A DNA stretch of 63,023 nt, filler included, from Collodictyon triciliatum (Eukaryota): the NCBI GenBank assembly GCA_043381765.1. It is 23 parts of 23 records of this genome, joined end to end, with 100 filler letters (N's around TTAATTAATTAA, not from the genome) between each part and the next. Parts side by side here need not be neighbours in the genome. Positions count along the whole stretch, not along the records: positions 16,491 to 19,137 come from JBHJMP010008515.1; 22 more parts are not named here. The stretch is one strand, 5' to 3'. Numbering within the stretch: the stretch's first letter is position 1; every line of letters starts with the position of its first letter. This document shows, one piece after another, positions 16,491 to 19,237 of the stretch. A program made the position numbers and the translations under genes. The notes below the pieces were generated by a model. The model had not been told where the DNA came from. It did no database searches and saw only the letters and a list, made by a program, of their open reading frames with translations.

Positions 16491-16585
16491 TTTGTTTGTT
16501 TGTTTGTTTGTTTGTTTGTTTGTTTGTTTGTTTGTTTGTTTGTTTGTTTGTTTGTTTGTTTGTTTGTTTGTTTGTTTGTTTGTTT
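16491..16585. repeat. (TTTG)n microsatellite abutting the Fanzor-like sequence
   Basis: Direct reading. Confidence 0.95.
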
Positions 16586-18236
16586 TTGTACGCTTTAAAG
16601 ACAGTCAGAGGAGTTTCTTAACATAGACACGCAAGATTAAAAAAAAAATCCAGGTTTGAGTGAAGACCTAATGACTTTTTATCTCAATGATTTTCGATTA
16701 CTTTTGTCCCGAGGAGAGCGCTTTCCGTTGGTTATACTGTCTCATCTATTACTGTACTTGGCGGAGCAAATGTTAACAGCTTATCATAATAACATTAAAG
16801 AACATTCTGTAAAGAGGTTATCGTGCTTTATAAATCAAACAGTACCTAAAGATGAGAATATTACGAAAGCTATTAAAATGCCAGAGTCACGAAAGTTAAA
16901 AAAGCTATCTTCAAGAAACTCGAAATACTGAACACTACGAAGAATGGGCTAAAATACATTTGCATCATATCATTCCCAGCGATATTGTAAATGGTATCGA
17001 ATATGACGGCAAAGTCAATCCAAATAAGTACATTCCATGTCTGATTTACACGAATCGCATTTTTGAGGCCATCAAACCCAAACTGTTTCAACCAATCTCT
17101 ATAAGAACTAACAATATACCATGTCATATTAGTCTAGATACTGCATGTTTAATAGAGGTATTAGTATTATCCGGAAAAACATCATTGATGAAGAATATAT
17201 CAGGATTTGAAGATACCCTATATGATTTCTTTGAAATTAAGAAGAGGGTCTTTCATCAAAGAGACTACAATTTTCAAAATATGATACAAACAGACGGCTT
17301 GGCGGCGTCATTATTGTTTGAAAAGAAAGGTATTTCAAGTTCAAAACCCCAAGATTATGTTTATATAGATGAACTTTCCGAAGAGCAATTATCTTTATTA
17401 GCGACAAAAAAAAAAAAAAAGTCGGAGTGGACGCAGGCAAGTTTAATTTGGTTTAAATGGTGGATGGGACAGGTAAGAAATTACGTTACACGATACACCA
17501 AACAAGACATGATAGCAAATCTCTTTAAAAATCACAAAATACTCTTGCGCGAAAAAAAAAGTACAATGCTCCAGGGATAAGCATGGAAACAGTTTACAAA
17601 GTGTTGTTTCTTTTGTTTCCATGACTTTTGAAGAGAATCAGCAGTTTAAGACATCAAGAGCATCTTTAATCGATTTAGAGACAGAACTGAGTAAACATAA
17701 TTCATGAACGGTCGATTATGAAAAAAAAATCGAAAATATGTATCTATGAAATCAAGATACCAGATAGAATTTTCCGGATTTTATGAACACGTAACTTTTC
17801 GAAAGATGAGATGGAGACATTATGCTAATACAAAAAGAAGTGAACTATTGCGTACGGACAGAATCGAAAAGGCATTTGGCAAGGATGTTGTACTAGCGTA
17901 TGGAGACAGGAGCAGAGAATGTTAGATGAAACATTTTATGGCAACAATCGGAAGAGGATTACGAAAAAAAAAATACTATCCAAACGGTTTGAAACAGTTA
18001 GTGTAGATGAATTTAGAACCTCCAAAATGAGTTGCAACTGCGAAAAAGAACTGGAATATATGACACCGAATGGAAAGTTCAAAAAAGGCGTATAGATGCC
18101 TCATATGTAAATAATACAATCGCCCAGAAAGCAAACAAAGTGTATTCTTGACAAGGGACTTAAACAGCGCTAATAATGCGCTTAACACAGTTCTTTCAAT
18201 CCTTCAAAAAACTCGTACACCTTCCTTTAAAAAAAC
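16583..18236 (+). pseudogene. Fanzor1-type (TnpB-derived, RuvC) RNA-guided endonuclease, degraded, N-terminus off contig
   Basis: Collinear motifs across frames: LLYLAEQMLTAYHNNIKEH, KLFQPISIRTNNIPCHISLDTACLI, MIQTDG, RuvC-I VGVDAG (D 17430-17432), KLRYT, ETELSKHNS*TVDYEK, FRKMRW, LAYGD, RuvC-II VDEFRTSK (E 18009-18011), Zn-finger remnants SCNC/CLICK*Y, RuvC-III TRDLNSA (D 18157-18159). Stops at 17454, 17705, 17923 and 18112, plus several frameshifts, mostly in A runs. Confidence 0.92.
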
Positions 18237-18361
18237 AGGCTGTCGGGTCTTTCCTGGCAGCCTACACCACTACACAATCTTTGTGAAAAAAGTGGTGAGA
18301 CCTTGGATACTAGCGCACCAGGTTTACCAATCGAAAGATTGGTATGCCTCTTCTAGTCTCA
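18237..18361 (+). ncRNA. Putative Fanzor omegaRNA scaffold / element right end
   Basis: Four consecutive hairpins: 18237-18263, 18265-18297, 18298-18325, and 18325-18344 (TACCAATC-GAAA-GATTGGTA). Loop ACTAG (18309-18313) complements CTAGT (18353-18357), giving a pseudoknot; AT-rich flank follows. Confidence 0.75.
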
Positions 18362-19002
18362 CATAAAAGTATCAAAAAATCTATATATATATAAACAAAA
18401 AAGAAAATTAGACTTTATTGATATGAATTACTGCCACACCTGAAAGATGATTTTGCTTGGCGTGTCAAATAAATATGGATAGAATTTTCAATTCATTATT
18501 CGTTGATTTTTTTTTTATTTACTAATCATTATGATTTCGCTGTTTGAGTGAAATCTGCTGCTAGGGACCGAAGATGATGTATCCATGCTCTTCTCTCTCC
18601 ATTCGTCCGAGTCTGTGCGAAAGTGTTGTACTCATAAATTACTGTTTTACAAATTTCTACGAATTTTTTATCAAAAAATTATGGGATTCACATCAACGCT
18701 TAGTTAGTATAATAATTATATTAATTATGAAATTATTAACATTAATGAATGTGGTGGGCAAATAGAAAAGCCCACCTTCAGAATATATTTTGTCCAACCC
18801 ACTGACAGTAAAATTCCATACGAGTCATCGTCTGTGTTACACTCGCACACCTGTTTAACAAGTTAATGGATTATTATCAATTTAGTTGCTCACACACCGT
18901 GGAGCAGGACACATAATTCAGAATAAAAAAGAATAAAAAAGAATAAAAAAGAATAAAAAAGAATAAAAAAGAATAAAAAAGAATAAAAAAGAAAAAAAAA
19001 AG

Positions 19003-19057
<55 letters not shown>

Positions 19058-19237
19058 AAAAAAAAAGAATAAAAAAAGAATAAAAAAAGAATAAAAAAAG
19101 AATAAAAAAGAATAAAAAAAGAATAAAAAAAGAATAANNNNNNNNNNNNNNNNNNNNNNNNNNNNNNNNNNNNNNNNNNNNTTAATTAATTAANNNNNNN
19201 NNNNNNNNNNNNNNNNNNNNNNNNNNNNNNNNNNNNN

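What the first reader, a model, noticed from the sequence alone, without database searches (positions are those of the whole stretch)
16583..18361. Fanzor1-type RNA-guided nuclease locus in a protist nuclear genome
Seen: a fragmented ORF with all three RuvC acidic motifs (VGVDAG, VDEFRTSK, TRDLNSA), Zn-finger remnants and upstream Fanzor1 motifs (YHNNIKEH, LFQPISIRT, IQTDG, LRYT, FRKMRW, YGD). It is directly followed by a structured non-coding end. Established: Fanzors are eukaryotic TnpB descendants guided by an omegaRNA made from the element's right end plus flank. Inference: the motifs resemble the compact Fanzor1 proteins I recall from giant viruses, so this may be a virus-derived or horizontally acquired family. 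The ORF track misses it because of stops and frameshifts; an active consensus may be reconstructable.
Basis: partly seen in the sequence, partly recalled or inferred. Interest (0 to 1): 0.88.

Follow-up and report, generated by a model that had tools for sequence, protein, structure and literature searches.

The report
Dead Fanzor1 nuclease gene copy
This is a broken, front-truncated copy of a Fanzor1 RNA-guided nuclease gene from a multi-copy jumping-gene family in an unidentified aquatic eukaryote; it is a real but ordinary relic of a kind of element known since 2013.

Summary
Window 16583-18286 (+) is a Fanzor1 pseudogene. It aligns colinearly with residues 77-642 of an intact 648-aa relative (P0159) at 60.7% identity, but needs 11 frameshifts and holds 5 in-frame stops. 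The first ~76 codons are missing at a (TTTG)n array and contig end.

A profile of 30 full-length relatives matches solved Fanzor1 structures (SpuFz1, E 1.6e-102). It also matches six colinear pieces of this contig and nothing else in the window. The D-E-D residues survive, but DPG reads DAG and one zinc cysteine is lost.

The ORF's 3' end plus ~60-90 nt downstream is the only strongly folding part of the contig (z -3.5 to -5.9), as in intact relatives.

Relatives whose genomic context I could read lie in giant-virus contigs, inside IS630/Tc1-mariner-type TIR elements. Public runs show a multi-copy family, 80-99% alike, ending near 18330-18379. Its other copies lack several of this copy's lesions.

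Verdict: new member of a known kind, non-functional here. Host identity is unresolved. Interest is low to moderate.

The parts
16491..16585 (.). (TTTG)n microsatellite at the left end of the contig; the Fanzor homology starts right at its edge, so the 5' part of the gene and the element's left end are missing
   Evidence: TRF 23.8 copies, 100% matches. The alignment to P0159 starts at residue 77 at 16583. The same repeat ends two other contigs of the window.
16583..18286 (+). Fanzor1 pseudogene: colinear with residues 77-642 of the intact 648-aa relative P0159, 337 of 555 aligned residues identical. It has 11 frameshifts (near 16640, 16891, 16920, 17408, 17523, 17549, 17590, 17736, 17966, 18075, 18229) and 5 in-frame stops (16619 TAA, 17454 TAA, 17705 TGA, 17923 TAG, 18112 TAA). 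The family's natural stop is read at 18284-18286.
   Evidence: Frameshift-aware alignment (earlier version against P0002); HMM hits; tblastn.
17421..17438 (+). RuvC-I motif VGVDAG. The catalytic Asp (17430-17432) is kept, but the Fanzor signature DPG reads DAG.
   Evidence: Translation; weak OrfB_IS605 hit, E 2.8e-5, below cut-off; relatives read DPG.
18003..18041 (+). RuvC-II motif VDEFRTSK, with the 'alternative' Glu (18009-18011) that lies six residues before the first CxxC in relatives. Here the first Cys is Ser (SCNC).
   Evidence: definition of the Ealt motif from passages of PMC10711439.
18097..18108 (+). Second CxxC of the zinc finger (CLIC), kept. It is followed by an in-frame TAA at 18112.
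18151..18171 (+). RuvC-III motif TRDLNSA; the catalytic Asp (18157-18159) is kept.
18238..18343 (+). Structured 3' region spanning the ORF end and the non-coding tail, with hairpins at about 18238-18262, 18265-18297 and 18326-18343. This is the candidate remnant of the guide (omega) RNA scaffold.
   Evidence: Fold of 18150-18400: -67.3 kcal/mol, z -5.87, 0 of 200 shuffles as stable. Only the sliding windows 18086-18335 and 18211-18460 are structured, with z -3.5 and -4.8; the other 15 range from +2.0 to -1.4. The last 250 nt of intact relatives behave the same way.
18302..18379 (.). Interval that holds the right end of the repeated element. Depth of related contigs in run X4 falls from 140 to 43 to 0 across it.
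   Evidence: read-laying table 2.
18380..18919 (.). Flank outside the repeat family, with no coding signal found. Identical pieces occur in two aquatic or freshwater metagenome runs.
   Evidence: X2 record 18349-18586 and X1 record 18406-18613, 0 differences each. ORF list.
18920..19137 (.). (AGAATAAAAA)n / poly-A array at the right end of the contig
   Evidence: TRF.

Best explanation
Window 16583-18286 is a decayed copy of a Fanzor1 gene, lacking its 5' part as it stands on this contig, followed by the remnant of its 3' guide-RNA region and the element's right end near 18330-18379.

In intact relatives the protein is a ~630-650-aa RuvC nuclease. From published work on other Fanzor1 proteins, it binds a structured RNA transcribed from the 3' end of its own gene and the transposon end, and cuts DNA matching the guide. 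In the relatives whose surroundings I could read, the gene rides in a cut-and-paste element with ~32-nt terminal inverted repeats. Some of these elements also carry a divergent IS630/Tc1-mariner-type DDE transposase; others do not.

Shown here:
- homology and colinearity with Fanzor1;
- the lesions;
- the localised RNA structure;
- the multi-copy nature of the family.

Inferred:
- This copy makes no nuclease. It has no start, and it has 11 frameshifts, 5 stops, a lost zinc ligand and DPG changed to DAG.
- It decayed neutrally in an AT-rich, microsatellite-prone eukaryotic genome. At least 6 of the 11 frameshifts lie in A-runs of 7-15.
- Its family moved by a mariner-type transposase supplied in trans or from full-length copies.
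For: Homology:
- The 16900-17421 piece finds 647 proteins at E <= 1e-3.
- A profile of 30 full-length relatives matches SpuFz1 (1.6e-102), PpFz1 (6.3e-98) and GtFz1 (2.6e-80).
- 15 of these 30 carry PF07282.
- That profile hits six colinear pieces of this contig only.
- P0159 itself matches GtFz1, PpFz1 and SpuFz1 at 2e-28 to 4e-23.

Lesions:
- Four of the five stops are one base from the codon of the residue aligned in P0159: TAA/Tyr, TGA/Cys, TAG/Gln, TAA/Glu.
- A 266-nt contig from run X3 is identical over 16738-17003, which spans two of the frameshifts. Those two are therefore not errors of this assembly, unless X3 is its source sample.
- Other copies read TAC (Tyr) at 17454-56: 12 of 12 X4 contigs covering the site. 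Some lack 1 nt at 17524, 2 at 17721, 5 at 17964 and 1 at 18077, each of which would restore the frame there.

Multi-copy family: 294 contig pieces in X4 and 124 in X1, at 80-99% identity, ending near 18380.

Anatomy of relatives:
- Terminal repeats and element boundaries.
- A DDE_3 transposase is next to Fanzor1 in L003 and L006, and in 32 of 90 loci.

3' structure.
Against: - No left end, target duplication, terminal repeat or transposase can be seen in the window. The type of carrier element is therefore inferred from relatives that are only ~40% identical in protein.
- A covariance model and a DNA HMM of the viral 3' scaffold find nothing at the window's 3' end. Homology of that RNA is not shown; only position and foldability agree.
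- No raw reads of the source organism were available. A-run lengths not covered by identical contigs could still include assembly errors.
- Contig ends break in microsatellites, so the 5' truncation may reflect the assembly and not the genome.
Confidence: 0.9

Rival explanations
1. The gene is intact in the organism, and the breaks are artefacts: homopolymer sequencing errors, unrecognised introns or a non-standard genetic code.
For: At least 6 of the 11 frameshifts lie in A-runs of 7-15, a classic site of sequencing error. Published Fanzor genes in eukaryotes often have introns (passages of PMC10530073).
Against: - Five stops of all three kinds fall at positions where relatives have Arg, Tyr, Cys, Gln and Glu, so no single reassignment fits.
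- Frameshifts near 16920, 17523 and 17590 are not in A-runs.
- The X3 contig reproduces the sequence exactly across two frameshifts.
- The extra segment 17561-17650 that I first took for an intron is a coding insert shared in frame with intact P0159.
- Other ORFs of the assembly are long and open under the standard code, for example 672 aa at 47075-49093.
- The first ~76 codons are absent.
Confidence: 0.04
2. The contig is not host nuclear DNA. It is a piece of a giant virus, or of an integrated giant-virus element, carried in the assembly.
For: Every full-length relative with readable context lies in giant-virus-like contigs, beside RNR small subunit, capping enzyme and the 2-cysteine adaptor domain, on contigs labelled GVMAG. 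On the tree the copy falls in the 34-row clade that holds all 10 IMG/VR representatives.
Against: - The copy is only ~40% identical to those viral proteins.
- It is heavily decayed and bounded by the same kinds of microsatellite that end other contigs of this assembly.
- It belongs to a family of hundreds of contig pieces at 80-99% identity. That is the pattern of an old transposon family in a cellular genome, not of a compact viral genome.
- The viral loci were found with patterns taken from that clade, so their clustering there is partly by construction.
Confidence: 0.08
3. It is a prokaryotic TnpB or a Fanzor2 (IS607-type), for example from bacterial contamination.
For: A weak OrfB_IS605 hit on the RuvC-I piece, E 2.8e-5, below Pfam's cut-off.
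Against: The family profile matches only Fanzor1 chains strongly, plus LaTranC at E ~0.004. No TnpB or Fanzor2 chain appears at E <= 0.01. The long N-terminal half matches Fanzor1 end to end. The glutamate is in the Fanzor 'alternative' position.
Confidence: 0.01

Closest known systems
Fanzor1 RNA-guided nucleases with solved structures: Spizellomyces punctatus (8gkh), Parasitella parasitica (9cf0), Guillardia theta (9cer)
   Same: Full-length profile match covering the N-terminal lobe, RuvC-I, the alternative Glu, the zinc finger and RuvC-III. A structured RNA region lies at the 3' end of the gene.
   Different: Distant in sequence: the single piece 16900-17421 reaches only E 0.0023 against PpFz1. 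This copy is broken and cannot make protein. Its subfamily has an insert of ~31 aa after the RuvC-I strand, shared with P0159.
Fanzor1 carried by Mariner/Tc1-type elements of giant viruses and protists (PGv-1, PUl-1, PUl-4 and relatives; Bao & Jurka 2013, PMC3627910, passages read; 'Fanzor1c with Mariner/Tc1' in PMC10530073, passages read)
   Same: The relatives whose surroundings I could read (L001-L090) have exactly this build: ~32-nt terminal inverted repeats, a divergent DDE_3 transposase or none, and Fanzor1 ending ~47 nt before the right end.
   Different: I did not compare with the PGv-1 sequence itself; it is not in any collection I could search. The window copy shows no such terminal repeat or transposase. 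It is ~40% identical to the viral proteins and sits in a cellular-looking, repeat-rich assembly.
Unnamed intact relative P0159 (648 aa, ENA assembly) with P0001 and P0160
   Same: 60.7% identity over 555 aligned residues; same insert; same C-terminal end KKQAVG....
   Different: P0159 is uninterrupted and reads DPG, CCNC and YGDWS where the window reads DAG, SCNC and YGDRS. Its organism and flanks are unknown to me.

Membership tests
Fanzor1 | Colinear full-length homology to Fanzor1 proteins, and not to Fanzor2 or TnpB | tested here: met
   Profile A1 against PDB gives SpuFz1 1.6e-102, PpFz1 6.3e-98 and GtFz1 2.6e-80, with no Fanzor2 or TnpB chain at E <= 0.01. The same profile hits six colinear window pieces. 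Alignment to P0159 residues 77-642.
Fanzor1 | RuvC D-E-D residues, with the Glu in the 'alternative' position six residues before the first CxxC | tested here: met
   Asp at 17430-32, Glu at 18009-11 and Asp at 18157-59 are all present. Motif definition from passages of PMC10711439.
Fanzor1 | DPG signature at RuvC-I | tested here: not met
   The window reads DAG, while relatives P0002, P0159 and P0001 read DPG. This is a change private to this copy or its near kin; I could not see what other copies have here.
Fanzor1 | C4 zinc finger (CxxC...CxxC) | tested here: not met
   SCNC...CLIC, so 3 of 4 cysteines remain.
Fanzor1 | Uninterrupted gene encoding a ~600-aa protein | tested here: not met
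   11 frameshifts, 5 stops and the first ~76 codons missing. It is a pseudogene of the family, not a working member.
Fanzor1 | Guide (omega) RNA gene overlapping the ORF's 3' end and running to the element end | tested here: inconclusive
   There is strong local structure at the right place: z -5.87, unique within the contig and mirrored in intact relatives. There is no sequence or structure homology to the viral scaffold by covariance model or nhmmer, and no RNA data.
Fanzor1 | RNA-guided DNA cleavage | not testable with these tools
   This needs biochemistry, and this copy could not be tested as it stands.
Mariner/Tc1 (IS630)-type Fanzor1 elements of giant viruses | Terminal inverted repeats of the ...GGCGTTTTAAATG...AAAGGTGTA type, with flanks diverging right after them | tested here: not met
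   The nhmmer model of the 3' region plus terminal repeat gave 127 hits in the loci and none in the window contig. The left end is absent from the contig.
Mariner/Tc1 (IS630)-type Fanzor1 elements of giant viruses | DDE_3 transposase in the element, or in sister copies | tested here: not met
   tblastn of two such transposases against the window gave a best E of 0.58. Present in 32 of 90 relatives' loci. Other copies of the window's own family could not be inspected.

The most novel reading that the evidence does not exclude
The window copy is a dead member of a still-active, high-copy Fanzor1 family in an unidentified aquatic eukaryote. On this reading the family is a host-resident lineage (window, P0006, P0001, P0159, P0160) that branched from the mariner-borne Fanzor1 of giant viruses, gained a ~31-aa insert and evolved a guide-RNA scaffold no longer recognisable by the viral model. 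Intact copies would then be a natural, compact nuclease with a new guide RNA and a case of virus-host exchange of an RNA-guided nuclease.
Probability: 0.3. Interest if true: 0.45.

Novelty: new member of a known kind. Interest (0 to 1): 0.25.

Why it matters
As it stands this is one more Fanzor1 relic. A published survey already lists 3655 unique putative nucleases (passage of PMC10530073), and mariner-borne Fanzor1 has been described since 2013.

It has modest value in three respects:
- It marks a multi-copy Fanzor1 family in an uncharacterised aquatic eukaryote.
- The nearest full-length relatives with readable context are in giant viruses, which bears on how these nucleases move between viruses and hosts.
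- Intact kin such as P0159 exist that could be tested.

The copy itself does nothing.

Tried and rejected
- **Whole genome:** none is held for this window, so no assembly-wide search for intact copies, left ends or target duplications was possible.
- **Viral and phage searches with the single piece 16900-17421:** nothing in viral contigs or phages. The first metagenome scan, with close relatives, also found nothing.
- **Intron idea:** I considered a GT-AG intron at 17561-17633 or 17561-17650. I rejected it because intact P0159 reads an in-frame insert there, which the window matches in two frames, and X4 contigs run straight through it.
- **My first alignment** routed through two extra stops at 17747 and 17765. 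The profile hit on ORF 17722-17922, P0159 and the 2-nt difference at 17721 in other copies show the correct path has none there.
- **RNAalifold on the broad 32-sequence 3' alignment** gave no structure because the alignment is gappy.
- **Covariance model R1 of the viral scaffold:** 16 hits at E <= 10 in the window, best 0.83, none at the expected place.
- **Rfam:** 0 matches in the window.
- **Host identity:** the protein atlas gave only 'Eukaryota' for the JmjN/ARID ORF and nothing for the 672-aa ORF.
- **Sequencing runs:** no RNA holder listed, and no run held half or more of the stretch's words. X4 and X7 are only guessed to be RNA, so expression is not addressed.
- **Earlier findings:** nothing by place or by sequence.
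- **Alternative genetic codes** (for example TAA=Tyr) were considered and rejected, as set out under the rival explanations.
- **Supplementary tables of the Fanzor papers** were not available. They may list this organism or family.

Full report
**What the window is.** The 63-kb window is not a continuous locus. It holds 22 spacers of N44-TTAATTAATTAA-N44, which separate 23 contigs of about 2.65 kb each. Many contigs end in microsatellites. The finding lies on the contig 16491-19137. This contig is bounded by (TTTG)n at 16491-16585 and by (AGAATAAAAA)n with poly-A at 18920-19137. Nothing beyond those limits is context for the finding. A neighbouring contig carries a JmjN/ARID gene fragment whose nearest atlas clusters are all eukaryotic, so the assembly is from a eukaryote. 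No tool gave a finer taxon.

**Checking the observation.** Pfam sees only a sub-threshold OrfB_IS605 match on the RuvC-I piece, E 2.8e-5.

The longest open piece, 16900-17421, finds 647 proteins at E <= 1e-3 among 1.84 billion representatives. Full-length hits are about 600-700 aa, and the query aligns near their residues 200-350. A profile of 30 such proteins matches three solved Fanzor1 proteins over their whole length:
- Spizellomyces punctatus, E 1.6e-102;
- Parasitella parasitica, E 6.3e-98;
- Guillardia theta, E 2.6e-80.

The only other chains at E <= 0.01 are two LaTranC entries near 0.004, and there is no Fanzor2 or TnpB chain. Of the 30 members, 15 carry the Cas12f1-like TNB zinc-ribbon domain.

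I ran the same profile against all 2420 stop-to-stop pieces of the window. It hits six pieces, all on this contig, on the + strand and in profile order, with E from 5.6e-48 to 1.7e-3. The next best hit elsewhere has E 0.14.

**Anatomy of the copy.** A search for longer relatives found an intact 648-aa protein, P0159. It is 56% identical over the query piece and itself matches the three Fanzor1 structures at 2e-28 to 4e-23.

A frameshift-aware alignment places window 16583-18274 on P0159 residues 77-642, with 337 of 555 aligned residues identical (60.7%). The path needs 11 frameshifts and crosses 5 stops:
- TAA at 16619;
- TAA at 17454, where P0159 has Tyr;
- TGA at 17705, where P0159 has Cys;
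- TAG at 17923, where P0159 has Gln;
- TAA at 18112, where P0159 has Glu.

At least six frameshifts lie in A-runs of 7-15 bases: 16639-48, 17406-20, 17552-60, 17721-29, 17964-73 and 18229-35. The family's natural stop is read at 18284-18286.

Homology starts at the very edge of the (TTTG)n array. The first ~76 codons and everything upstream are therefore absent from the contig.

The catalytic Asp, Glu and Asp survive. The Glu is in the 'alternative' position that distinguishes Fanzors (passages of PMC10711439). However, DPG reads DAG, the first zinc cysteine is Ser, and YGDW reads YGDR.

A ~31-aa insert after the RuvC-I strand is shared with P0159. I first took it for an intron. It is not one.

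**Are the breaks real?** No run holds the whole stretch, but laying four runs was informative.
- Contigs identical to the window cover 16738-17003 (X3), 18349-18586 (X2) and 18406-18613 (X1).
- The X3 piece spans two frameshifts and reproduces them. The caveat is that a holder may be the assembly's own source sample.
- Run X4 (coded 'organism A') yields 294 contig pieces and X1 yields 124, at 80-99% identity. They cover 16586 to about 18379, and X4 depth drops to 0 from 18380 onward.

This is therefore a multi-copy repeat family whose right end lies between 18302 and 18379. Other copies lack several of this copy's lesions:
- All 12 X4 contigs at 17456 read C, which makes TAC (Tyr).
- 16619 reads C in all contigs shown there.
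- Some contigs lack 1 nt at 17524 (6 contigs in X4), 2 nt at 17721, 5 nt at 17964 and 1 nt at 18077. Each of these would restore the frame at that site.

One loose-end consensus shows that other copies also carry a stop of their own near 16950, so the family as a whole is old and partly decayed.

No single reassignment of stop codons fits the five aligned residues. Other ORFs of the assembly are long and open under the standard code.

**What relatives look like.**
- *Where they sit.* The best full-length relative from the first search, P0002 (40.5% identical to the read-through with X at the breaks), led to ten metagenome loci. Two of these lie on contigs of 254 kb and 173 kb with dense intronless ORFs. 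These ORFs include ribonucleotide reductase small subunit, a trifunctional capping enzyme, a helicase and a 2-cysteine adaptor domain. A scan of IMG/VR confirmed 409 loci, of which the best 80 were kept. Many are labelled as giant-virus MAGs, and one is the same 254-kb contig.
- *Element build.* Comparison of loci defines the element. It has ~32-nt terminal inverted repeats ending ...AAAGGTGTA, with flanks diverging right after them. A divergent DDE_3 (IS630/Tc1-mariner-type) transposase is present in the long form (3.3 kb). The short forms (2.0-2.3 kb) have none. Fanzor1 stops about 47 nt before the right end. 32 of 90 loci hold a transposase relative.
- *Match to the literature.* This build matches the Fanzor1-in-Mariner elements of Bao and Jurka 2013 (passages of PMC3627910). 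It also matches the Mariner/Tc1 association of 'Fanzor1c' (passages of PMC10530073).
- *Tree.* On a FastTree of 87 rows, the window copy pairs with P0001 (support 99). The pair sits inside a 34-row clade (support 98) that holds all 10 IMG/VR representatives. The viral loci were fished with patterns from that clade, so this shows kinship, not direction of transfer.
- *What the window lacks.* It has no transposase remnant (best E 0.58) and no match to the viral terminal repeat model.

**The 3' end.** In the viral relatives the last ~160 nt are conserved at the DNA level. They contain two helices with compensatory changes: 4 of 13 pairs change on both sides, and the covariation score is 0.215 against 0.056 in shuffles, with 0 of 500 shuffles reaching it. 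This is consistent with a guide-RNA scaffold.

In the window, 18150-18400 folds at -67.3 kcal/mol, with z -5.87 and 0 of 200 shuffles as stable. Of 17 sliding windows over the contig, only the two covering 18086-18460 are structured (z -3.5 and -4.8). The other 15 range from +2.0 to -1.4. The last 250 nt of two intact relatives give z -5.9 and -4.4.

However, a covariance model of the viral scaffold and a DNA HMM find nothing there, and Rfam has no match. Homology of the RNA is not shown.

**Mechanism.** For the family, the following rests on published work on other Fanzor1 proteins and was not tested here. A RuvC nuclease is loaded with an RNA made from its own 3' end plus flank, and it cuts matching DNA. 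It probably helps the carrier transposon persist.

This copy has no activity as a nuclease. At most, its RNA remnant could be bound in trans by protein from intact copies, if it is transcribed. That is speculation.

**Verdict.** This is a genuine Fanzor1 relic and a new member of a known kind. The claims of a working locus and of high interest do not. The earlier notes of this scan on mariner-borne Fanzor1 in giant viruses agree with what I saw in the related loci.

Noticed in passing
window 1-63023: The window is 23 contigs of ~2.65 kb in descending length, joined by 100-nt spacers (N44-TTAATTAATTAA-N44). Many contigs end in microsatellites, and (TTTG)n ends three of them. Features must not be read across the spacers.
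   Followed up: yes
window 34462-35385 (+): A GC-rich open frame encoding JmjN plus ARID domains (KDM5/JARID-like fragment). Its nearest atlas clusters are all eukaryotic. It is followed by a (CAGAGC)n-like Gln-Ser repeat.
   Followed up: partly
window 47075-49093 (-): A 672-aa open frame with many hydrophobic segments and no usable atlas hit; not studied further.
   Followed up: partly
window 45458-46318 (-): A 286-aa open frame of leucine-rich repeats, judged from its translation only; no family search was run.
   Followed up: no
L054, L056, L028 and 25 further loci (alignment A8); e.g. L028:5763-5842: The giant-virus Fanzor1 elements share an ~83-nt block at the ORF's 3' end with two helices. 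Helix 1 shows clear compensatory changes (CG/AU/UA at one pair, UA/AU at the next). This is probably their guide-RNA scaffold.
   Followed up: partly
L004:380-2653, L008:3609-5637 versus L003:4637-7952: The same terminal repeats bound both transposase-bearing (3.3 kb) and Fanzor-only (2.0-2.3 kb) elements. L043 carries an extra ~50-nt structured insert just inside the right terminal repeat.
   Followed up: partly
L005:116 onward: A second long ORF on this locus also matched the Fanzor profile, but sat on a very long branch in the tree (2.45). It may be a second, divergent Fanzor on the same contig.
   Followed up: no
window 17550-17650; P0159 residues ~415-445: The window's subfamily (with P0159) has a ~31-aa insert after the RuvC-I strand that the viral relatives lack. 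The gene model P0001 ends inside it.
   Followed up: partly
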